A stretch of DNA of 10,674 nucleotides from Oligoflexales bacterium (lineage in GTDB: Bacteria; Bdellovibrionota_B; Oligoflexia; Oligoflexales; CAIYRB01): positions 1-10,674 of the forward strand of contig JBGSUI010000045.1 in the NCBI GenBank assembly GCA_041736175.1, read 5' to 3'. Shown in pieces: positions 1,113-10,674 of the stretch. A program made the position numbers and the translations under genes. The notes under the pieces are model-generated. The model searched no databases. It saw only the letters and a program-made list of their open reading frames with translations, and had not been told where the DNA came from. Within the stretch, counting starts at the first letter, position 1, and the number at the start of each line of letters is the position of its first letter.

Positions 1113-1280
1113 TGGGGAGCTTCGGCTATTGCCATCATAGCTCCTTAGGTTTACATGTAACAACCAATAATTGCTTTTTAATTTGCATCTCCTTGCTTTT
1201 GACGAGTCTTTTTCCTCAAAAGATGCTCTGTAAAACCCGACACCTTTATGTCTGCCAACCTTGGCAGAGCAGATTTCACC

Positions 1281-1286
1281 AGGAGG
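1281..1286 (+). promoter_or_regulatory. Shine-Dalgarno AGGAGG for the SPFH gene
   Basis: AGGAGG lies 7 nt upstream of the ATG at 1294. The TTG at 1261 used by the ORF track is probably not the real start. Confidence 0.6.
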
Positions 1287-1293
1287 ATTAAAA

Positions 1294-2343
1294 ATGTCTA
1301 TCGTTCAATCTCTAAAAAACCAACTCCGCTCCGTCATCGAGTGGGAGGGGTTTGACAGCAGCGCGGTACTTTGGCAATGGACCATCAACGGTGACGAAAT
1401 TAAAAACGCATCAAAACTTTTGGTAAAACCTGGTCAGGGCTGTTTTTTCCTCCACGAAGGAAAAGTTGAGGCTATCCTAACTGACTCTGGAACCTACACA
1501 CTTAAGACTGCAAATATTCCGTTTTGGACCACCGTATCAAAATTTATGCAGGCCTTTGAAAGCGAGCATAAGGTGGGAATCTACTTTTTTCGCAGCGGTC
1601 CCCTCGTCGATCAGAAATGGGGCACCACAAATCCCATCAAATACTTTGATGCCAAATACGAGCAATCTGTGATGCTTAAAGCCTTTGGAACCTATACCGT
1701 CCAAGTGTTGGAGCCAAAGTCTTTTTTAGAGTTTGTGGCGTCGGCACCGTCGTTTTCGGGGGAGCAGCTCAGGAGTGCTTTATTTTCGCGGCTGGAACAG
1801 TCTATCAAAGACAGCATTGCCGAGTGCCAGTTTGGCTTTGACGAGATTGATTCTAAACTTAACGAGATTAGCGCAAAAACCCGAGACCACCTAAATAACG
1901 ATGTGGCAAACTTAGGGTTTAAAATCACGGATTTCAGGATTAACGGTACGACCTTTGACGAACAGACCACAAAAAATATCCAAGAGATCTCTCGGGCCGC
2001 AGCCGAGGCCATGGCCGCCAAAAAACGAGGTCTCACCTACGCCCAGCAGGCACAGATCGATACGATGAAAATTGCGGCGGCAAACGAGGGGGGAGGGCTG
2101 GCCGCGACGGGAGCTCAGTTGGCTGCTGGTGTTGGGATGGGCCAAATGATGGCTGGAGCCATGGCTGCCAACCTGGCAGCATCCACACCACCCCAAGCGG
2201 TACAAACCCAGGTAAGCCAAAGTCCGCACGACGCAAACGAGCCGGTAAAGCGCCTTAAAAAACTCAAAGACTTGTTTGACGCCGGCTTGATCGATGCCCA
2301 GGAATTTGAGTCTAAGAAGAAGGAGATACTAGCAGATATTTAA
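1294..2343 (+). CDS. SPFH/Band-7 family protein (Band_7_1, YdjI-like) with a C-terminal SHOCT-type motif
   Basis: The N-terminus, MSIVQSLKNQLRSVIEWEGFDSSAVLWQWT, matches the characteristic start of YdjI/Band_7_1 SPFH proteins. A central coiled, Ala/Gly-rich linker follows. The C-terminal KRLKKLKDLFDAGLIDAQEFESKKKEILADI is a typical SHOCT bihelical motif. The start has a strong RBS. Confidence 0.85.
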   Translation: MSIVQSLKNQLRSVIEWEGFDSSAVLWQWTINGDEIKNASKLLVKPGQGCFFLHEGKVEAILTDSGTYTLKTANIPFWTTVSKFMQAFESEHKVGIYFFRSGPLVDQKWGTTNPIKYFDAKYEQSVMLKAFGTYTVQVLEPKSFLEFVASAPSFSGEQLRSALFSRLEQSIKDSIAECQFGFDEIDSKLNEISAKTRDHLNNDVANLGFKITDFRINGTTFDEQTTKNIQEISRAAAEAMAAKKRGLTYAQQAQIDTMKIAAANEGGGLAATGAQLAAGVGMGQMMAGAMAANLAASTPPQAVQTQVSQSPHDANEPVKRLKKLKDLFDAGLIDAQEFESKKKEILADI

Positions 2344-2382
2344 AGCGAGTTTACAATATGGTTCGGGTTTATAAAGGAAGGT

Positions 2383-3525
2383 ATGGCTATGGGTATGCGT
2401 GTAAAAAAACAACTAATCTATGAATTCTGGGACTGTCCCCAGTGCGGTGCTCAAGGCATCCTAGGGTCAGCAGAATCCTGTCCCCATTGCTCAAAGCCTC
2501 GAAACCAAAGCATCAAATTTTATCGGAAAAGCGACCAAGAGATCTTGGTCGAGCAAGAAAAGCTCAGCAGACACAGTGGAGGAGCTGACTGGATTTGTGA
2601 ATACTGTGATGGACTCAACGCCGCGATGTTGACCCACTGTGGTTCGTGTACCGCCGAAAAATCTGCAAATGCCAAGACCGTTGTTGACCCAGGGCCTAAA
2701 GACATTCCCCCTCCTAAAGTCGAAGCATTATCTAAAGGTCCGCCCACTAAAAGCCGACGGCGGTTGATTCTTGGTCTGGTGGTGGCATCAATCGCTGCTC
2801 TCTTATACTGGTCTATGGCTGCGGAAAAAAACACCTATAGGGTGGACCAAGTCTCCTGGAGTCGCAAAATAATCGTGGAGCGTTACGTGCGGGAGTTCCG
2901 AGAATCATGGGAAGATGAACAGACCGGTGACGACATATCGCTTCTCACCAAGAAATCTAAGGTCAGGTCCTACAAGGATGTTCTCGACCACTATAAGACC
3001 GAGACCTATTCCGAAGAGGAATCCTATCAGTCAGGTAGTCGCGAAAAATGCTCTACCGAGTATAAATCCACGGGCAATGGTGCTGCAGAAAAAATCACTG
3101 CTTGCCACGACGAGCCGGTTTATGCAACAAGGCAGATCACAAAAACCAGAGAGGTTCCCGTCTATAGAAAAGAGCCAGTTTATGCAAACTGGGTTCGGTA
3201 CCAATCAAGCTTTTATAAAGACCATCAGGTCTTTGAAAGCTCCGGGACAAACAATGCTCCCCAATGGCCTAAAACTAAATTAGGAACGGGGGTCTCGCAA
3301 AGACCCGACCGGGAAGGTGCGCGGGACGGTCTTTATCGAGTGACGTTAAGGAGAATGTCTCCCAGTAAAAAAGCGCCTCCTTCCGTCACGATCACGACGA
3401 TAGAAAAGCGATTTGTCGATCACTATGAGATCGGCAAAGAGATCGCTGTGGACTATCAAAATGTGGGCGGTCTGCAGTGGCCCGAGGGCGACAAGGAGGA
3501 ATCAAGCTCTACTGACAAACCTTGA
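2383..3525 (+). CDS. Double zinc-ribbon single-pass membrane protein (YdjG-like partner of SPFH/Psp modules)
   Basis: Two CxxC...CxxC zinc-ribbon units (CPQC..CPHC and CEYC..CGSC) lie at the N-terminus. One hydrophobic transmembrane helix follows (RRRLILGLVVASIAALLYWSMAA). The C-terminal domain of about 230 aa has repeated EPVY/VPVY motifs. The gene begins 40 bp after the SPFH gene with no terminator between them. The start could be the ATG at 2383, 2389 or 2395; the RBS AGGAAGG at 2373-2379 favours 2389 or 2395. Confidence 0.8.
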   Translation: MAMGMRVKKQLIYEFWDCPQCGAQGILGSAESCPHCSKPRNQSIKFYRKSDQEILVEQEKLSRHSGGADWICEYCDGLNAAMLTHCGSCTAEKSANAKTVVDPGPKDIPPPKVEALSKGPPTKSRRRLILGLVVASIAALLYWSMAAEKNTYRVDQVSWSRKIIVERYVREFRESWEDEQTGDDISLLTKKSKVRSYKDVLDHYKTETYSEEESYQSGSREKCSTEYKSTGNGAAEKITACHDEPVYATRQITKTREVPVYRKEPVYANWVRYQSSFYKDHQVFESSGTNNAPQWPKTKLGTGVSQRPDREGARDGLYRVTLRRMSPSKKAPPSVTITTIEKRFVDHYEIGKEIAVDYQNVGGLQWPEGDKEESSSTDKP

Positions 3526-3922: not shown

Positions 3923-4981
3923 GTGACTGACCCCCTGCTTAAAGTCGACCAATTGGTCACATCCTTTAAAGTCGAAGCCGGAGTGCTCCGGGCAGTCGAT
4001 AAAGTCAGCTTTAGTATCAACCGGGGTGAGACGGTCGGGCTTGTGGGCGAATCAGGCTGCGGTAAGAGTGTCACCTCCCTGTCTATTTTAAGACTGATCG
4101 CCTCACCTCCAGGACTGATTGAGTCGGGTAAGATCCTCTTTGATGGCCAGGATCTCGCCCAGCTCTCCGAAGAAGAGATGCGAAAGCTGCGGGGAAACCG
4201 CATCTCGATGATCTTTCAAGAGCCCATGACGAGTCTTAATCCGGTGTTTACCATCGGTGACCAGATCGGCGAGGTCTTTAGGATCCACCAAAAATCATCC
4301 CGCGCCGAGGCTCGTAAAAAAGCCATCGAGATGCTCCACTTGGTCAAAATCCCTGCTCCCGAGGCACGGGTTGATGAATACCCCCACCAACTCTCCGGCG
4401 GCATGAGGCAGCGGATTATGATCGCCATGGCTTTAGCCTGTCGCCCCCAGCTGTTGATTGCAGACGAGCCCACGACCGCCCTTGATGTGACGATCCAAGC
4501 ACAGATTCTCGACCTGATCGAAAGCCTGCAAAAAGAACTCAATATGGCGGTCCTCCTGATCACCCACGACCTGGGTGTGGTGGCTGAGGTTTGCGACAAG
4601 GTTGTGGTGATGTATGCAGGTAAGGTAGTCGAACAGGGGACGGTGCACCAACTCTTTACCAATCCCCAGCACCCCTACACCCAAGGGCTGCTTCGCTCTA
4701 TCCCTAAGCTCGGCCATAAGTCCGAGTATCTGCCGACGATCGAAGGAACAGTTCCCAGTTTAGGAAATCTACCTCAAGGCTGCCGCTTTCAAACCCGATG
4801 CTCCCAGGTTTTTGACCGGTGTCGGACCGTGGAGCCTCCTTTGGTCCCTGTCCCTACGGGGTCAGGACCAACCCGCGACCTCGATGATTTAGGTTTAGGC
4901 CATGCCAGTGCCTGTTACCTGGTCCAAGGCGCAAGTGGACCCCATATCGACGGGAGGCCTGGTCATGACTCCACTCCTTGA
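3923..4981 (+). CDS. oppD: Oligopeptide/dipeptide-type ABC transporter ATP-binding protein (OppD/DppD-like)
   Basis: Walker [12 protein letters not shown] signature LSGGMRQR and Walker [13 protein letters not shown] are present, as is the oligopeptide-ABC C-terminal region ([17 protein letters not shown]). The gene uses a GTG start with an AAAGG RBS. Its 3' end overlaps the next gene by 17 nt. Confidence 0.9.
4952..4957 (+). promoter_or_regulatory. Shine-Dalgarno GGGAGG for the oppF-like gene
   Basis: GGGAGG lies 7 nt upstream of the ATG at 4965. This supports the internal start over the ATG at 4902. Confidence 0.55.
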
Positions 4982-5951
4982 AGTCCGCAACCTCATAAAA
5001 TACTTTCCTATCAAAGGGGGAGTTTTTGGCAGAGTCGTTGCCAAAGTCCATGCGGTGGACGGTGTCAGTCTGTCTATGCTGCCAGGCCAAACCTTAGGTC
5101 TCGTGGGTGAGTCGGGCTGCGGCAAGTCCACCTTAGGCCGGGCGATCCTTCGGCTGCACGAACCCTCCTCTGGCCACATTCAATTTGATGGTTGCGATCT
5201 CCTTTCGCTGACGACCAGCGAACTCCGTGCAAAACGTCGGGATATGCAGATTATATTTCAAGACCCCTTTTCCTCCCTCAATCCGCGGATGACCGTGGGA
5301 TCTATCCTCGCGGAGCCCTTTTTGATCCATAGGCTATGTTCAAAAAAGGAAACCACCCAACGAGTTAAGGAGCTATTAGAGACAGTTGGACTGCCTCCCG
5401 AGGCGGATAGCCGCTATCCCCACGAGTTTTCCGGTGGCCAACGGCAGCGTATTGGGATCGCCCGGGCGATTGCCCTTAGACCTAAGCTGATCGTTGCGGA
5501 CGAACCCGTCAGTGCTCTCGATGTTTCGATCCAATCCCAGATCCTTAATCTGCTGGTAGATCTCCGTAAAAAACTCCAGCTCACCTATCTTTTTGTGGCC
5601 CATGATCTCGCGGTCATCGAACACATCAGCGATTTTGTCGCCGTGATGTATCTGGGAAAGATTGTCGAATACGCCTCAAGCGAACAGCTTTACTTGAAGC
5701 CTTCGCACCCCTATACCAGAGCCTTGATCAGTGCCATTCCCGTCCCTAAAGTCAGCCTTCCAGGGACTCCTAAAAGACAGCGGCAGATCCTGATCGGCGA
5801 TGTGCCTAGCCCAATTAATCCACCTTCGGGATGTTATTTTCATCCCCGGTGTCCCCTGGCGACCGACAAGTGTAAGCAAGAGGCTCCGGCCCAACGCAAT
5901 ATCAGCGGCGCGGGCAAACCGCCCCATTTGGTTGCTTGTCATTATGCATAA
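4965..5951 (+). CDS. oppF: Oligopeptide/dipeptide-type ABC transporter ATP-binding protein (OppF/DppF-like)
   Basis: The N-terminus [19 protein letters not shown] is typical of OppF/DppF. Walker [10 protein letters not shown], signature FSGGQRQR and Walker [13 protein letters not shown] are present, with a C-terminal [12 protein letters not shown] motif and a CxxxRC..C tail. It is translationally coupled to the neighbouring genes at both ends. Confidence 0.9.
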
Positions 5952-7035
5952 CGTCCACCCTAGGCCAGACAAAACCCTGATCTGTCTCACAGGAGGCGGC
6001 ACGGCGGGGCATGTCACGCCTCATTTTGCATGGACGCCTTTTTTTGACAAACAAGGCTGGGATTATATCTATATCGGATCTCAGGGTTTAGAAAAATCCC
6101 TTGTGGAAGCCCAAAAGATCCCTTTCTATACCATCGCTGCGGGTAAACTCCGCCGCTATGCCTCCTGGCAAAACTTTACGGATCTCTTTAAAGTGGTCGG
6201 GGGGTTTTTCCAGGCATTTCGAATTTTAGGCCAAACCCGACCCAGCCTTATCCTGAGCAAAGGGGGATTTGTGGCGGTGCCGGTTGCTGTGGCAGGCTGG
6301 TTGCGGAAGATCCCGGTGATCTCCCACGAATCAGATGTATCCCCAGGACTCGCCAATCGGATCATCGCCCGGTTTGCCCACAAGATCCTCTACGCTTTTC
6401 CCGAGACAGCCCAATATATCAGCGGCGATAAAGGGGTATATGTGGGCGCACCGGTACGGGCTGACCTGGCCCTTGGGGACAAAAACCGAGCTGTCGCCCT
6501 GTGTGGATTCCAAGATTTTGACCCTAGCCTGCCGACGCTTTTGGTGATGGGCGGAAGCCAAGGGGCCCAGCGTATCAACGATGCTCTTAAGATCATATTA
6601 CCAACTCTTACCCAGTCTATGCAGGTGATTCACCTGACGGGCAAAGGCAAGACGATAGGCTTTCAGCATCCTCGCTATAAAGCTTTTGAGTTTGTGTCCC
6701 AAGAGTTTAAAGACCTCCTCGCCCTGTCGACCCATGTGGTTAGCCGTGCGGGGTCTAACTCCATCTTCGAACTCTTAGAGCTCCATAAGCCGATGCTTTT
6801 GATCCCTCTTGAGCTTGGAAGCAGGGGCGACCAAATCCTCAACGCCAACTCCTTTGCCCGCCAAGGCTGGTGTTTGACCTTAAGGGACAAGGATCTATCG
6901 GAGACGTCGCTCCTCGCTGCTATTAAACAGCTGATCGACCAGGGTCCACAGCTGGTCCTCAAACACCAATCCCGGCCCACCAGTCATACCTGTGATAGGG
7001 TAGTGGACGAGATCAAATCCACTCTTAAGATCTAG
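5944..7035 (+). CDS. murG: MurG-type GT28 glycosyltransferase (UDP-GlcNAc:undecaprenyl-PP-MurNAc-pentapeptide GlcNAc transferase)
   Basis: The N-terminal G-loop [15 protein letters not shown], the HESD motif, GAPVR, GGSQGAQ and SRAGS all align with conserved MurG motifs (GGTGGHVFP, HEQN, GNPVR, GGSQGA, SRAGA). The start ATG at 5944 sits in the sequence ATGCATAA, which overlaps the oppF stop codon. The longer form starting at 5800 in the ORF track is an upstream extension. Confidence 0.8.
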
Positions 7036-7169
7036 CCAACTCAGTGGGGATCAGGCCTGCCCAACTTCTCTAAAAGTGGCACCTGAATCTTCGCTTGTAA
7101 AGCATCTGAGTAAGGACCTGTCAATAAATAACTTGGACACTTTCTAATTAAATAGTCTATAGTCCAAGA

Positions 7170-8156
7170 ATGCTATCAGAACAATCAAAAAACCTAGATC
7201 GAATCCCAGATGTCATCGCCCTACTTGAAGAGATTGTAGATCCTACGAGCCGCGGCGATCCAGAATCTCCGCTTCGCTGGACTTGCAAGAGTGTCCGAAA
7301 TATAACGGAGTCTTTGAACATTAAAGGATATGCAATCAGCCGACAAACTGTAGCAAATATTCTCCATGAACTAGACTATAGTTTGCAAACAAACAGAAAA
7401 ACATCTGAAGGTAAGAAGGATCACCCAGATCGAGACCAGCAATTTCGTTTCATCATTAGTAAGGCAAAAGCCTTCCTAAATAAGTCTCTGACGGTTATTT
7501 CCGTTGACCCAAAGAAGAAGGAACTGATCGGCAAATATAAAAACGCGGGCCATGAATGGGAAAAAAAGGCATGTCAGTCAAAGTGCTAAGTCATGATTTT
7601 CCTGATCCTGATAAACCAAAAGCAGTTTCTTATGGCGTATATGACATTGGGGGAAATCTTGGGTGGGTCAAGATCGGCATCTCGGCGGACACTACTGAAT
7701 TCGCTGTTGAGAGTATCAAACAATGATGGAATTTAATGGGTAGAAAACGATACACGATGGCTCGAGAAATATATATTTGCGCGGACAGCGGAGGTAGCAA
7801 CGGCTACCGAATTCACCTTTGGAAATATGAACTACAAAAGTTTTGTGATACTCAAAATATTACCATCACCGTCTCATTATCTTCCGGGTACAAGTAAATG
7901 GAACAAGATAGAGCAACGTCTGTTTTCATATATCACCATGAATTGGTGTGGGCGGCCACTCACGGATTACAGAACTGTCGTTGATCTAATTGCAGCAACT
8001 ACCACTAAGATGGAGTTGATCGTCAAGGCACGTCTCGATAATAAAAAGTACAAAAGAGGCATTAAGGTTTCTGCCAGCGAAATGGCAAAATTAAATATCT
8101 TTCGCAGTACATTTCACGGTGAATGGAATTACACCATTTCACCTCGAAGTGTCTAA
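7170..8156 (+). pseudogene. Decayed ISAzo13-family (Rhodopirellula-type DDE) transposase relic, 5'-truncated and frameshifted
   Basis: Three successive reading frames carry family-typical segments. The first is ESPLRWTCKS..RQTVANILHELDYSLQTNRKT..HPDRDQQFRFI (7170-7589). The second is SYGVYDIGGNLGWVKIGISADTTEFAVESIKQ*W (7571 to about 7877), with a TGA at 7724-7726 where the family has a conserved Trp. The third is CADSGGSNGYRIHLWKYELQ.../HYLPGTSKWNKIEQRLFS...FHGEWNY (to 8156). This gives at least two frameshifts and one nonsense codon, and the N-terminal 70-100 aa of the family are absent. Confidence 0.7.
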
Positions 8157-8307
8157 GTTATTTCTTGAAAGGTCCTTAGCTTTTGCTGTACTCGCCTTGC
8201 CGGACACAATGGATTCCGTCAAGATCAAGCCAGCTTTTCTTTTTTTACCTTTCCTGGGGATATGGGTTTATGATCGGTGGGTTTGGAAACCTTGTCGGAC
8301 TTTTGGG

Positions 8308-8818: not shown

Positions 8819-9160
8819 ATGAAAATAATTCCACTCGCTCCCAATCGTCAATGCGTTATTTCATTCGCAGTGCTTTTAAAGTTCTGGTTTCAAACAAACA
8901 AAAAGCTGTACTCACAGGTCCATAAAATAGTCATCAGAGAAATCCAACCTTATTACAAAAATAAGGCCATATCCCTAGGTGTCAAATATCCTCTGAATGG
9001 AACTAATTCCTACACACTGAGATTTGGATCAGACCCAAACTTAAACCAACAGAACCATTGCCTGGCGCTTGATGGCGTTTTCACTGATGTCGCTGGTGTC
9101 ATGCGCTTTTATAACACCCCTGCCATCCGCGATCAAGAAGTGGCCACACTGATCACTTAA
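8819..9160 (+). pseudogene. Fragment of an IS91/ISCR-family (HUH-Y2 rolling-circle) transposase
   Basis: The 113-aa ORF contains LRFGSDPNLNQQNHCLALDGVF...TPAIRDQEVATL. This matches the conserved RFGSALNLN-hHfH-LaLDG...aPT.aEvAtl block of IS91/ISCR transposases. The HUH histidines are degenerate here (NHC). There is an in-frame stop just upstream and no catalytic C-terminal half, so this is a truncated relic. Confidence 0.5.
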
Positions 9161-9290
9161 ATCAGCAACAAGGTCATAACGTCCCTTAAAAAGAAGTCTC
9201 TTGACTCTTCGTCGGAATTCTTGGGAAGAGAGGTAGTTTTGCTAAAAAATTCTAGTTTGAAGGTTCAAGTTTCCAGAGGTCGCCGACCAA

Positions 9291-10655
9291 CTACGGAACT
9301 ACGCAGCGCACCACAGTGGCGCTCTCAGAGCCGCTGAAGCTAGCCCCGGTTCCCGCCCACATCCAGTAATGATTAGAATAGTAAGTGCTGGCCGAAGACG
9401 TTCTGGTATTACTCATGCCCACAGACGGTACACCAGTGGTCGAGGATGACCAGCTAGGCGAGGCTGGGTCCGCAGGTTTGTTATCCACTGGATCGTTGGC
9501 AGTCGTCTCGTATAGGAGCGGCAGCCGCATTCCCTTATTGGCACAGGTTTGGATATTACCTTCATACCACGATGCACTATAGCTGGCACCACCGGCGGTT
9601 GTGTTCCAGAACCCTAAACGGTAGGCTCCTGCTGTGGTCTGATTGGTGTTGCCGTCATGGGCGGTGGCATCCAGACGCTGGCTTGGGTTTCCTTGATCGT
9701 AATATACACAACGCCCGGTCGCTACTCTATTGCCGTCATCGACATACACGTTTACAGGACAGACGCGACCACCAAGATTGGCCACGGTCCTATCGAGATT
9801 TGTGGCGCTAAAAGAGCGACCATTGGCGTTAAGCTTCAAATGCCAATTATCGGAACCATTTACCCGCAGCACGTTATTGCCGTCGGCCTGTACCCATATC
9901 CCCGAGGTAAGGACAAGAAGCTTGCCGCTTCCTGTATATGCCATGCCCGAATTCAAGGCAGCACTGGTCTGGTAGCAATCCACGCCGCAAAGCTCTGGTT
10001 TATCCCGGCTAGTGGTCCCTATCAACGATGTCTGGTACCAGGCAATACCATTGGAGACTAGCTGGACCAGAGCATTGGTTTGCAGAGTTATGGGCGCCTG
10101 AACCCCATCGATCTGGTCCGTGCCAGAGGGGAGGACTGTTGCCCAGAGCCCTGCACCTTTTACTGTGAGTAGATATCCCGCACCGGCACTTGCTGCAGTA
10201 GGGAGGGTCAGGGTGGTCCGGTTCCCTGTCACGATAAAATATTTGCCGCTGTCTCCAGCTGTCAGAGTATAGTCAGAGCTTTTCGTAGAAACACCCACAC
10301 TACCTCCACTAGCAGCCCAAGATAAGGATCCCGATCCATCCGTCACTAGTGCCTGGCCACTTGTCCCATCTGCGGCAGGGAGGGTCCAGATTTTATTGGT
10401 GGTGACAGAAGCAGGAGCCTTAAAACCTACATAGTGGCTATCGTCGTTATCCCCAAATCTAAGATCCGTAGCAGCTGTACCAGTTCCTGCCACCCGGATA
10501 TTGCCAGTGCTTGAGAGCTGGCCAGATGTGGCCACCACAGTGGAGCCCCCGATGGTCCCCGAGGTGATGGCAGAGCCAGAGACTTTGCCCGCAGTGCTAA
10601 TGGTGTCCAGTTTAGTATCAGCGATGGCGGCTGAGGCGTTGATATCCGTGTCCAT
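9291..10655 (-). CDS. Fibre/adhesin-like protein: phage-tail-fibre-like Gly/Thr/Ser-rich N-terminal region plus a DUF1566/Lcl-like lectin-type C-terminal domain. The 5' end may lie beyond the window.
   Basis: 454-aa ORF. The N-terminus ADTKLDTISTAGKVSGSAITSGTIGGSTVVATSG...LRFGDNDDSHYVGFKAPASVTTNKIWTLPAADGTSGQALVTDGSGSLSWA is a motif seen in tail-fibre or Bdellovibrio-type surface fibre proteins. The C-terminus CANKGMRLP...SWSSSTTG...VVRCVVP fits the DUF1566 pattern (C..G.WRLP..EL, YWSST, vRCVR). The reading frame remains open upstream of the ATG at 10655 all the way to the window edge, so the true start may be further 5'. Confidence 0.8.
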   Translation of the reverse strand: MDTDINASAAIADTKLDTISTAGKVSGSAITSGTIGGSTVVATSGQLSSTGNIRVAGTGTAATDLRFGDNDDSHYVGFKAPASVTTNKIWTLPAADGTSGQALVTDGSGSLSWAASGGSVGVSTKSSDYTLTAGDSGKYFIVTGNRTTLTLPTAASAGAGYLLTVKGAGLWATVLPSGTDQIDGVQAPITLQTNALVQLVSNGIAWYQTSLIGTTSRDKPELCGVDCYQTSAALNSGMAYTGSGKLLVLTSGIWVQADGNNVLRVNGSDNWHLKLNANGRSFSATNLDRTVANLGGRVCPVNVYVDDGNRVATGRCVYYDQGNPSQRLDATAHDGNTNQTTAGAYRLGFWNTTAGGASYSASWYEGNIQTCANKGMRLPLLYETTANDPVDNKPADPASPSWSSSTTGVPSVGMSNTRTSSASTYYSNHYWMWAGTGASFSGSESATVVRCVVP

Positions 10656-10674
10656 GATCGAATTATTGGTGATA

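What the first reader, a model, noticed from the sequence alone, without database searches (positions are those of the whole stretch)
9291..10674. Fibre-like adhesin with a tail-fibre-type N-terminal shaft and a DUF1566/Lcl lectin-like tip, located next to IS relics
The N-terminal 150 aa, ISTAGKVSGSAITSGTIGGSTVVATSG...LRFGDNDDSHYVGFKAPASVTTNKIWTLPAADGTSGQALVTDGSGSLSWA, resemble the conserved attachment/shaft region of phage tail fibres and of Bdellovibrio-type mosaic surface fibres. The C-terminal about 120 aa, C..G.RLP...E, SWSSST, VVRCV, look like a DUF1566/Lcl C-terminal (C-type-lectin-like) domain. Conserved shaft plus swappable tip is the hallmark of host- or prey-recognition proteins. 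The gene converges on an IS91-like fragment and an ISAzo13 relic, a typical context for diversifying adhesin loci. The ORF is still open at the right window edge, so additional N-terminal sequence, or a longer gene, may exist.
Basis: partly seen in the sequence, partly recalled or inferred. Interest (0 to 1): 0.65.

Follow-up and report, generated by a model that had tools for sequence, protein, structure and literature searches.

The report
Truncated surface fibre with lectin-fold tip
The window ends in the last 460 codons of a gene for a long, phage-tail-fibre-like surface fibre of a probably Bdellovibrio-related lake bacterium, whose tip is a large, uncatalogued binding module ending in a C-type-lectin fold; it is a plausible cell-recognition adhesin of a recently described kind, not a new kind of system.

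Summary
A minus-strand ORF (9291-10673) stays open to the window edge. The window is a whole 10,674-bp contig, so the gene is cut at its 5' end.

The 460 residues have four parts:
- shaft repeats (aa 1-118) shared with proteins that carry phage tail-fibre attachment domains;
- a knob (aa 119-222) that forms the C-terminus of many phage-like fibres;
- a beta-rich lobe (aa 225-365);
- a C-type-lectin-like core (aa ~366-460).

Full-length relatives (688-1565 aa) add a signal peptide and a conserved N-terminal beta-sandwich. They occur in several copies per genome in lake MAGs, several named Oligoflexales or Bdellovibrio. The tip was not found in viral collections.

Best reading: a cellular MAT-like adhesive fibre, not a prophage fibre.

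Unexpected lead: two near-identical relatives differ at the tip only at codon positions 1-2 of NNY codons, the signature of a diversity-generating retroelement. No template repeat, reverse transcriptase or Avd lies in this window.

The parts
9291..10673 (-). 3' part (460 codons plus TAG stop) of a fibre-protein gene. The 5' end is cut off by the contig end.
   Evidence: The ORF is open to the edge. The contig length equals the window length. The homology to P0002 runs to the first codon.
10320..10673 (-). Distal shaft, aa 1-118. Two repeat-type units: unit A aa ~1-56 (INASAAIADTKL..GKVSGSAITSGTI) and unit B aa ~57-125 (LRFGD..YVGFKAP..WTLP..DG..GQ.L.TDG.G.LSW).
   Evidence: Each unit recurs 2-4 times in other proteins at 50-76% identity. 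Partner proteins carry Mtd_N, Phage_T7_tail or Peptidase_S74. IMG/VR loci L040-L045 match, and L042's ORF hits PHROG tail-fibre families.
10008..10319 (-). Knob domain, aa ~119-222 (KSSDYTLT..TLTLP..G..I.V..G....V..SG.D.IDG......L.SNG..W).
   Evidence: It is the very C-terminus of P0044, P0061, P0093, P0111, P0285 and P0287, but is followed by the C-domain in the window's subfamily. The profile hits the C-terminus of PDB 24qj_A, a tailspike depolymerase, at E 2.9e-5. Seven of 15 members hit the PHROG tail-fibre family phrog_11518, and the window copy hits phrog_37034 at E 1.4e-4.
9579..10001 (-). Lobe A of the C-terminal module, aa ~225-365. Beta-rich, with conserved cysteines (CG.DCY; GRVCP...GRC.YYD).
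   Evidence: It always co-occurs with the lectin core in the 236-aa family. It was modelled together with the core at pLDDT 92.1 and pTM 0.89. Invariant residues come from alignment A1.
9294..9578 (-). C-type-lectin-like core, aa ~366-460 (the boundary is approximate). It contains WYEGNIQTCANKGMRLPLLYET ... VVRCVVP.
9294..9401 (-). Hypervariable patch of the lectin core, aa 425-460 (TSSASTYYSNHYWMWAGTGASFSGSESATVVRCVVP). It corresponds to the stretch that varies in a DGR-like way in relatives.
   Evidence: The family consensus is TWTSSAxTxxxxxYWxWxxxxxxxxxYxxxxAVRCVVP. No template copy is present in the window.
9244..9290 (-). Conserved non-coding element directly after the stop codon (TTGGTCGGCGACCTCTGGAAACTTGAACCTTCAAACTAGAATTTT).
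   Evidence: It aligns with the 3' flanks of C-domain genes in L001, L002, L003, L027, L035 and L056 (blastn hits). It has no stable fold and no Rfam hit. Function unknown.
8819..9160 (+). Context only: fragment of an IS91/ISCR-like transposase gene, convergent with the fibre gene.
   Evidence: tblastn gives about 38% identity over 97-99% of its length to at least 5000 plasmid records. In the one record inspected, the site is about 750 nt downstream of sul1. There is no Pfam hit.
7111..8178 (+). Context only: decayed ISAzo13-family insertion sequence.
   Evidence: DDE_Tnp_ISAZ013 hits on three ORF pieces. Flanking 49-nt inverted repeats.

Best explanation
The window holds the distal 460 residues of a secreted, cell-surface fibre built like the 'mosaic adhesive trimer' (MAT) fibres of Bdellovibrio. 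The host is most likely a freshwater member of Bdellovibrionota (class Oligoflexia).

By analogy with full-length relatives, the missing 5' part encodes a Sec signal peptide, a conserved beta-sandwich domain of about 105 aa that would hold the fibre on the cell, and more shaft.

The part present here is the end of a phage-tail-fibre-type shaft, then a tail-fibre-type knob. Fused behind the knob is a 236-aa disulfide-bonded module whose distal half is a C-type-lectin-like fold. The last ~35 residues of that fold are the most variable part of the family and would form the ligand-binding face.

The fibre would project this tip away from the cell to bind a glycan or protein on another cell or particle (prey, host or substrate).

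Shown here: the domain order, the homologies, the fold, the paralogy and the tip hypervariability. Inferred: trimer formation, surface anchoring, ligand binding and any role in predation.
For: - Gene anatomy and truncation.
- Shaft homology to phage-type fibres.
- The knob is a tail-fibre or tailspike C-terminal domain.
- The C-domain is a real family. It has 268 representatives at E<=1e-3 and 231 at E<=1e-10. Of 149 full-length copies, 111 lie at the protein C-terminus. It also occurs in tandem copies and on proteins with Flg_new, fn3, He_PIG, TIG, Invasin_D3 and SBBP, all extracellular domains.
- Model and fold: pLDDT 92.1; best PDB matches are the Bd2740 MAT tip and the Lcl C-terminal domain.
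- Six conserved cysteines fit an oxidising, extracellular location.
- Full-length relatives P0002 (688 aa), L001 (1565 aa) and L004 (1296 aa) start with a signal-peptide-like segment and a conserved N-terminal domain. That domain modelled as a beta-sandwich with pLDDT 84-93 over residues 10-100 and has only generic PDB matches. The MAT paper reports the same for the MAT N-domain (PMC10769870).
- Mosaicism. The shaft segment is also joined to a Gly_rich_2 or a Peptidase_S74 end, and the N-domain plus shaft to an RCC1-repeat end.
- Taxonomy and paralogy. 39 genome loci were found, all in MAGs, many from lakes. Several are named Oligoflexales, Bdellovibrio sp. or Pseudobacteriovorax. There are 3-5 loci per MAG. 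Three paralogous fibres occur in one MAG.
- Non-phage context. No tip relatives were found in IMG/VR or BFVD.
- Fusion/fission support. Stand-alone signal-peptide-plus-C-domain genes lie 4-22 nt downstream of fibre genes. Those fibre genes carry the MAT capping-loop motif NVGIGTTxPxxxL and end in a C-terminal domain that looks like this knob by eye.
Against: - The window lacks the N-terminus, so the signal peptide and anchor domain are inferred from relatives at 52-58% identity.
- One close relative (P0003, 458 aa, on a 46-kb contig) is called from a Met at the equivalent position. A shorter or two-polypeptide form is therefore possible. Its DNA could not be fetched.
- Homology between the N-domain and the B. 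bacteriovorus MAT N-domain was not tested, because afdb50 was unavailable.
- No sequence-level link to Lcl_C reaches significance.
- The organism of the window itself is not identified.
- No trimer prediction or ligand test was possible.
- The canonical Ca2+/sugar motifs (EPN/QPD, WND) are absent, read directly from the sequence. The ligand class is open.
Confidence: 0.72

Rival explanations
1. It is a prophage or phage-remnant tail fibre (receptor-binding protein), and the rest of the prophage lies beyond the contig end.
For: The shaft repeats and the knob are shared with genuine phage fibres. These include proteins with Mtd_N, the T7 tail-fibre N-domain or S74, IMG/VR contigs whose ORF hits PHROG tail-fibre families next to a tail-fibre assembly gene, and PHROG and tailspike hits for the knob. 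C-type lectin domains are used at fibre tips by phages such as BPP-1 (Mtd). IS relics lie next to the gene.
Against: Full-length relatives begin with a signal peptide and a non-phage N-domain instead of a virion-attachment domain. The 9 kb next to the gene encode MurG, Dpp-type ABC ATPases and an SPFH protein, not phage genes. Relatives sit next to toxin-antitoxin and housekeeping genes. The tip module was not found in IMG/VR, and no BFVD match reaches E<=0.001. The shaft-plus-knob query has a single weak hit in 50,697 phage genomes. There are 3-5 copies per genome.
Confidence: 0.08
2. It is a target (variable protein) of a diversity-generating retroelement (DGR). The last ~100 nt of the gene would be a variable region rewritten from a template repeat by an error-prone reverse transcriptase, so that the cell continually changes the fibre's binding specificity. 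This adds to the fibre reading rather than replacing it.

For: Orthologous fibre genes in L001 and L002 are 99-100% identical over more than 1.3 kb. In the last ~100 nt they differ at 13 positions, all at codon positions 1-2 of codons ending in C or T: TCC/AAC, TAT/AGT, CTT/TCT, AAC/GGC, CTC/GGC, AGC/GGC, ACT/GCT.

A non-coding, AAY-rich copy of this stretch lies 670 nt downstream in L002, where the contig breaks. Its flanks are 100% identical to the same stretch of paralogue L004 in the same MAG. Across 17 tip copies, 47% of mismatches fall on the 26% of template positions that are A.

The ORF between the stop codon and that copy has a weak bAvd-like hit, E 0.024.

In the window, the aligned codons are TAC TAT TCT AAT CAT against AAC AAT TCC AAC AAT in that copy. 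Three of the five codon differences are single changes at a template A. Of the 14 variable-position codons, picked by eye are NNY.
Against: No reverse transcriptase, template repeat or Avd lies in the window. A motif search found no reverse transcriptase in any of the 58 sequences held (57 loci and the window).

The template-like copy is only 50 nt long because the contig ends, and many mismatches are not at A. The Avd-like ORF is on the opposite strand and has no PDB support. L001 and L002 also differ by a codon indel and by a second variable patch that is not A-specific.

NNY codons make up 62% of the whole gene, so the enrichment in the window is marginal, roughly P 0.01 by my own binomial estimate on positions chosen after the fact. 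Stand-alone relatives show non-AAY changes such as N to M and W to F in this stretch.
Confidence: 0.2
3. It is a decaying gene remnant. IS activity or assembly error has left a non-functional 3' fragment.
For: Two IS relics lie within 1.2 kb of the 3' end. Related fibre genes in MAGs are often broken by frameshifts or stops: L002 is split in two ORFs, L008 is split, and P0048 and P0283 end in out-of-frame sequence.
Against: All 460 codons are intact. All invariant family residues are kept. The model is confident. The truncation coincides exactly with the contig end, which is where a repetitive shaft would break an assembly.
Confidence: 0.1

Closest known systems
Bdellovibrio bacteriovorus MAT (mosaic adhesive trimer) fibres, especially the non-S74 member Bd2740 with its trimeric C-type-lectin tip (Caulton et al. 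2024, PMC10769870; PDB 8OKS)
   Same: The plan of full-length relatives matches: signal peptide, conserved beta-rich N-domain, phage-like fibrous shaft, exchangeable adhesive tip. They occur in several copies per genome. The host phylum is Bdellovibrionota. The lectin core's best PDB match is the Bd2740 tip. No S74 chaperone is present, as in the NS74 subgroup. Neighbouring family fibres carry the MAT capping-loop motif NVGIGTTxPxxxL.
   Different: The tip is not a compact 110-aa lectin domain on the shaft. It is knob, then a 140-aa beta lobe, then the lectin core. Only 14% identity holds over 91 aligned residues. The host class is Oligoflexia, known from lake MAGs, not Bdellovibrio proper, and predation is unproven for it. 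Homology of the N-domain to the MAT N-domain is untested. The same tip also exists as a stand-alone secreted protein and on non-fibre scaffolds.
Lcl_C / DUF1566 (Pfam PF07603; Legionella collagen-like protein C-terminal domain, PDB 8Q4E)
   Different: The Pfam model does not hit the window protein at E<=10. Relatives reach only E 0.0021. Profile comparison with a true Lcl_C domain gives E 0.34. One relative (P0242) carries a genuine Lcl_C domain and this module side by side, so they are distinct families.
DGR variable proteins with a C-type-lectin fold (Bordetella phage BPP-1 Mtd; Treponema TvpA, PDB 2Y3C)
   Same: A lectin fold at the C-terminus of a fibre or surface protein. Variability is concentrated in the last ~35 residues. 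There is an AAY-type codon pattern of variation in relatives. TvpA is among the fold hits.
   Different: No reverse transcriptase, full template repeat or convincing Avd was found. The window has none of them.
Phage long tail fibres with a separate tip adhesin (T2-type gp37 plus gp38). This comparison rests on my own knowledge, not on a test here.
   Same: In relatives, a stand-alone tip-module gene follows a fibre gene that ends in a knob-like domain. In the window the same module is fused to the knob.
   Different: No sequence relationship to gp37 or gp38 was tested. The proteins here carry signal peptides and sit in cellular contexts.

Membership tests
MAT fibres (B. bacteriovorus, PMC10769870) | Signal peptide followed by a conserved beta-rich N-terminal domain of ~130 aa | tested here: inconclusive
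   This part is not in the window because the 5' end is missing. Relatives P0002, L001, L002, L004 and L008 have a signal-peptide-like start and a shared ~105-aa domain. That domain modelled as a beta-sandwich with only generic PDB matches. Comparison with real MAT N-domains was impossible: afdb50 is unavailable and the paper's supplement holds no sequences.
MAT fibres (B. bacteriovorus, PMC10769870) | Phage-tail-fibre-like fibrous shaft | tested here: met
   The shaft repeats are shared with Mtd_N, T7-tail and S74 proteins and with IMG/VR tail fibres.
MAT fibres (B. bacteriovorus, PMC10769870) | Trimeric assembly | not testable with these tools
   Only monomer prediction was available.
MAT fibres (B. 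bacteriovorus, PMC10769870) | Mosaic build: conserved proximal end, exchangeable distal tip, several paralogues per genome | tested here: met
   The shaft segment is joined to a Gly_rich_2 or an S74 end, the N-domain plus shaft to an RCC1 end, and the N-domain to fn3 plus the C-domain. There are 3-5 loci per MAG. The window's own genome could not be examined.
MAT fibres (B. bacteriovorus, PMC10769870) | Surface exposure and involvement in prey contact | not testable with these tools
   This needs an experiment.
Pfam Lcl_C / DUF1566 (PF07603) | Match to the family HMM at or above the gathering score | tested here: not met
   No hit at E<=10 for the window protein. Three of 29 relatives hit at best E 0.0021. 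The one strong hit, in P0242, is a separate upstream domain.
Pfam Lcl_C / DUF1566 (PF07603) | Fold of the Lcl C-terminal domain | tested here: met
C-type-lectin-like domain superfamily | C-type-lectin fold, with a conserved cysteine pair placed where the canonical alpha1-beta5 disulfide would be | tested here: met
C-type-lectin-like domain superfamily | Ca2+-dependent sugar-binding motifs (EPN/QPD and WND) | tested here: not met
   Absent on direct reading of aa 366-460. [quoted passage not shown]
DGR variable protein | Cognate template repeat differing from the variable region only at template adenines | tested here: not met
   None in the window. A 50-nt template-like copy exists only in relative L002, with mixed mismatches.
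DGR variable protein | Reverse transcriptase (and usually Avd) nearby | tested here: not met
   None in the window and none found by motif search in any sequence held. L001 and L002 have a weak bAvd-like ORF, E 0.024. Remote targets are known to exist, so this does not exclude DGR targeting.
DGR variable protein | Variation limited to positions 1-2 of AAY-derived codons at the C-terminal end of a lectin fold | tested here: inconclusive
   Met for the L001/L002 pair, 13 of 13 substitutions. The window gene has no close allele to compare. Its NNY enrichment is marginal.
Phage/prophage tail fibre | Virion-attachment N-domain and flanking tail or baseplate genes | tested here: not met
   The downstream 9 kb are non-phage. 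Relatives have signal peptides and cellular neighbours. The upstream side of the window gene does not exist in the data.

The most novel reading that the evidence does not exclude
Cells of lake Oligoflexia (Bdellovibrionota) use a diversity-generating retroelement to rewrite the lectin tip of MAT-like surface fibres, the same trick that Bordetella phage BPP-1 uses on its tail-fibre tip Mtd. The window's gene would be one such target, either a remote one or a former one. That would give a possibly predatory bacterium a programmable recognition organ. The 236-aa module with its conserved 3' flank would be the exchangeable, hypermutable cassette.
Probability: 0.2. Interest if true: 0.75.

Novelty: new variant of a known kind. 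Interest (0 to 1): 0.45.

Why it matters
Chimeric, phage-like recognition fibres were described in Bdellovibrio only in 2024. This gene and its relatives suggest that the same design is used by uncultured freshwater Oligoflexia.

The tip module is not in Pfam. It is widespread on extracellular proteins (268 representative clusters). It occurs fused to fibres, free-standing next to fibres, and in tandem arrays. It could be defined as a new domain family, and it gives candidate specificity determinants for organisms whose lifestyle is unknown.

If the DGR-like variation seen in relatives is real, it would link two fields: predator or adhesin fibres and targeted hypermutation. It would also offer a natural, evolvable binding scaffold.

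For the window itself the finding is modest. It is a truncated member of the family with no diversification machinery in view.

Tried and rejected
- Direct family and structure searches. Pfam, PHROGs and NCBIfam on the whole 460 aa gave nothing usable. PDB sequence searches with the protein and with the C-domain profile gave nothing relevant.
- Genome scan. The first scan, with the single protein, found no relative, so the window's genome is not among the GTDB representatives.
- Contig look-ups. P0001, P0002 and P0003 are not on record. The start of P0003 and the context of P0002 therefore remain unknown.
- Cluster look-ups gave no organism names for the window's proteins.
- The metagenome scan found no contig extending the window gene.
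- The word-indexed search with P0002's N-terminus found only 10 close relatives and no named Bdellovibrio protein.
- Foldseek against afdb50 was unavailable. This was the planned test of MAT N-domain identity.
- The MAT paper's supplement holds no N-domain sequences.
- The strong Lcl_C hit in the family (E 2.2e-14) turned out to be a separate upstream domain in P0242. I rejected it as evidence of membership.
- The polyubiquitin 'hits' of the knob profile are summed repeat artefacts and were ignored.
- L001's downstream 138-aa ORF is unrelated to the window's 113-aa ORF and has no copy in the window.
- A motif search for a reverse transcriptase in all loci found nothing.
- The 3' flank does not fold into a stable RNA. 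Rfam found nothing in the window, and the consensus scan found no terminator.
Full report
**1. The observation**

The minus strand carries an ORF whose TAG stop is at 9291-9293. Its frame stays open to base 10673. The public copy of the protein (P0001, 454 aa, called from the ATG at 10655) lies on a contig of exactly 10,674 bp. The window is therefore the whole contig, and the gene is cut at its 5' end.

The six codons upstream of that ATG (ITNNSI) still align with the full-length homologue P0002 (IANNTI). The ATG start is therefore probably an annotation artefact.

Pfam, PHROGs and NCBIfam give no usable hit on the 460 residues. Neither does a PDB sequence search.

**2. Anatomy**

A homologue search and BLAST mapping split the protein into modules.

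*Shaft (aa 1-118).* Residues 1-56 and 57-125 are two repeat-type units. Each recurs two to four times in other proteins at 50-76% identity. Some partner proteins begin with Mtd_N or the T7 tail-fibre N-domain, or contain the Peptidase_S74 chaperone. Six IMG/VR viral contigs encode the same stretch at 40-59% identity. In L042 the ORF hits PHROG tail-fibre families and lies near a tail-fibre assembly gene. Only one of 50,697 deposited phage genomes matches, weakly.

*Knob (aa ~119-222).* This domain is the very C-terminus of P0044, P0061, P0093, P0111, P0285 and P0287. Its profile matches the C-terminal domain of a phage tailspike depolymerase (24qj_A, E 2.9e-5) and PHROG tail-fibre families. 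The polyubiquitin matches are repeat artefacts.

*C-terminal module (aa 225-460).* These residues are one module.
- An exhaustive HMMER search found 268 representative proteins at E<=1e-3 and 231 at E<=1e-10.
- Of 149 full-length copies, 111 end within five residues of the protein's C-terminus. Up to five tandem copies occur in one protein.
- Partner domains are extracellular: Flg_new, fn3, He_PIG, TIG, Invasin_D3, SBBP.
- Many members are just a signal peptide plus the module.
- No Pfam family covers it.

**3. Fold of the tip**

Only about 95 of the 236 residues align. The lectin-like core is therefore roughly aa 366-460, and aa 225-365 form an extra beta-rich lobe.

Invariant residues include the cysteines in IQTC and RCV, which sit where the canonical alpha1-beta5 disulfide would be. 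Two further cysteine pairs lie in the lobe. The Ca2+/sugar motifs are absent on direct reading.

At sequence level the link to Lcl_C (DUF1566) stays below threshold:
- no hit for the window protein;
- 3 of 29 relatives at best E 0.0021;
- one relative with a marginal Fib_succ_major hit;
- hhalign pairs the expected motifs but at E 0.34;
- the only strong Lcl_C hit in the family is a separate, additional domain in P0242.

**4. The missing N-terminus and the kind of protein**

P0002 (688 aa, 58% identical over all 460 residues) and the ORFs in L001 (1565 aa) and L004 (1296 aa) start with a signal-peptide-like segment. A conserved domain of about 105 aa follows (YSGRL...YPRQ..VP.AL), then shaft, knob and the module.

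An iterative search on the sequences held finds this N-domain on 18 proteins or ORFs. They include P0069, whose distal end is RCC1 repeats, and P0166, which has fn3 plus the module. The domain models as a beta-sandwich (pLDDT 84-93 for residues 10-100) and has only generic PDB matches.

The MAT paper states three things (PMC10769870):
- that domain has no PDB homologue;
- tips vary and include the C-type-lectin tip of Bd2740.

The architecture therefore matches. I could not test whether the N-domains are homologous, because afdb50 was unavailable and the supplement has no sequences.

**5. Where it occurs**

A genome scan with the module alignment returned 39 loci. All are in MAGs, many from lakes. 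The organism labels are Proteobacteria, Deltaproteobacteria, plain 'bacterium', Oligoflexales, Bdellovibrio sp. or Pseudobacteriovorax. There are three to five loci in several MAGs. Oligoflexales and Pseudobacteriovorax belong to Bdellovibrionota.

One MAG holds three paralogous fibres with the same domain order at 38-60% identity to the window protein.

The module was not found in IMG/VR. No BFVD structure matches at E<=0.001.

Neighbours are not phage genes:
- In the window: a decayed ISAzo13 element, an IS91/ISCR-like fragment, murG, two Dpp-type ABC ATPase genes, and genes for a zinc-ribbon protein and an SPFH/SHOCT protein.
- In relatives: toxin-antitoxin pairs and housekeeping genes.

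The organism of the window itself could not be named.

**6. Fusion/fission**

Stand-alone genes for the module (P0141, P0005) lie 4-22 nt downstream of fibre genes. Those fibre genes carry the MAT capping-loop motif NVGIGTTxPxxxL (compare) and end in a C-terminal domain that looks like the knob by eye. In the window's subfamily the module is fused to the knob.

This supports reading the module as the terminal adhesin and the knob as its platform. That step is inference.

**7. Mechanism proposed**

I propose a Sec-exported, probably trimeric fibre. Its N-domain would anchor it to the cell and it would project a lectin-like, disulfide-stabilised tip. The tip's last ~35 residues are the family's most variable stretch (consensus TWTSSAxTxxxxxYWxWxxxxxxxxxYxxxxAVRCVVP). 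They would bind a ligand on another cell or particle.

Shown: the architecture, the fold, the paralogy and the variability. Inferred: the oligomeric state, the localisation, the ligand and the biological role.

**8. An unexpected lead**

The fibre genes in L001 and L002 come from two different MAGs. They are 99-100% identical over more than 1.3 kb. In the last ~100 nt they differ at 13 positions, every one at codon position 1 or 2 of a codon ending in C or T, plus one codon indel. This is the footprint of DGR adenine mutagenesis on AAY codons.

Three further observations fit a DGR:
- In L002, 670 nt downstream of the stop and at the contig's end, lies a non-coding AAY-rich copy of the stretch (ACC AAC AAT TCC AAC AAT TAT TGG ATC TGG). 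Its flanks are 100% identical to paralogue L004 of the same MAG.
- Mismatches to 17 tip copies fall on template A positions about twice as often as expected.
- The ORF in between has a weak bAvd-like hit (E 0.024).

Several observations count against it:
- no reverse transcriptase was found anywhere;
- many mismatches are not at A;
- the Avd-like ORF is antisense and has no PDB support;
- a second variable patch is not A-specific.

In the window there is no template copy, reverse transcriptase or Avd. The NNY enrichment of its tip codons is marginal against a 62% gene-wide background. I therefore report this as the most novel reading not excluded, not as the explanation.

**9. Comparison and verdict**

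The gene works like, and most likely is, a MAT-type chimeric fibre of the non-S74 class. Its lectin-fold tip is closest to Bd2740 and Lcl.

It differs from the known examples in three ways:
- the tip is much larger (knob, lobe, lectin core) and belongs to an undescribed domain family;
- the host lineage is different;
- the module also occurs free-standing and in arrays.

Novelty: a new variant of a known kind. Interest is moderate for the window itself. It would be higher if the DGR lead is confirmed.

Noticed in passing
L001:10600-10705 vs L002:5937-6051; L002:6721-6770; L001:10791-11207 (-): Two otherwise 99-100% identical fibre genes differ at the lectin tip only at codon positions 1-2 of NNY codons. 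An AAY-rich non-coding copy of that stretch lies downstream, where the contig breaks. A weakly bAvd-like ORF lies in between. Together these are a possible diversity-generating retroelement. No reverse transcriptase was seen.
   Followed up: partly
window 9244-9290 (-); L001:10706-10760; L002:6052-6100; L003:1193-1255; L027:1499-1535; L035:400-431; L056:6507-6560: The ~45 nt directly after the stop codon are conserved among genes ending in this tip module, across paralogues and MAGs (GCGAC ACTTTGAAACTTGAATCTTGAAACTTTAATTTT, built of CTTGAAA-like units). There is no stable fold and no Rfam hit. Function unknown; it might be a recombination, homing or regulatory site.
   Followed up: partly
L053:3-2622; L054:2-1310; L056:4281-6506: Stand-alone genes for signal peptide plus tip module lie 4-22 nt downstream of fibre genes. 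Those fibre genes carry NVGIGTTxPxxxL capping-loop motifs and end in a knob-like domain (by eye). This suggests a two-protein version (fibre plus separate tip adhesin) of the fused architecture in the window.
   Followed up: partly
P0147 (3263 aa, 5 copies); L005, L011, L018, L019, L021 (2-4 copies): The tip module also occurs in tandem arrays within one protein or as adjacent genes, and on non-fibre scaffolds (Flg_new, fn3, SBBP, Invasin_D3). It is a general extracellular module that Pfam does not cover.
   Followed up: partly
window 7111-8178: Decayed ISAzo13-family insertion sequence. The transposase is split into three ORF pieces (7170-7589, 7556-7726, 7827-8156) between 49-nt imperfect inverted repeats.
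   Followed up: yes
window 8819-9160 (+): A 113-aa ORF with no Pfam hit. It is about 38% identical over nearly its full length to a sequence present on at least 5000 resistance plasmids. In the one record inspected, that sequence lies about 750 nt downstream of sul1, the usual place of ISCR1 (IS91 family).
   Followed up: partly
window 1261-3525 (+): A gene for an SPFH/Band-7 protein with a SHOCT tail is followed by a 380-aa protein with N-terminal zinc-ribbon-like CxxC pairs and one hydrophobic segment. The second protein has no family assignment.
   Followed up: no
window 3923-7035 (+): Two overlapping DppD/DppF-type ABC ATPase genes have no permease or binding-protein gene in view. They are followed by a murG gene that stands outside a dcw cluster. 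The long ORF call for murG (from 5800) overlaps the preceding gene, and the real start is probably at 5944.
   Followed up: no
L002:1352-6051; L008:124-4027; P0048; P0283: Several related fibre genes in MAGs are interrupted by a stop or frameshift, or end in out-of-frame sequence. These could be assembly errors in repetitive shafts or real pseudogenisation.
   Followed up: no
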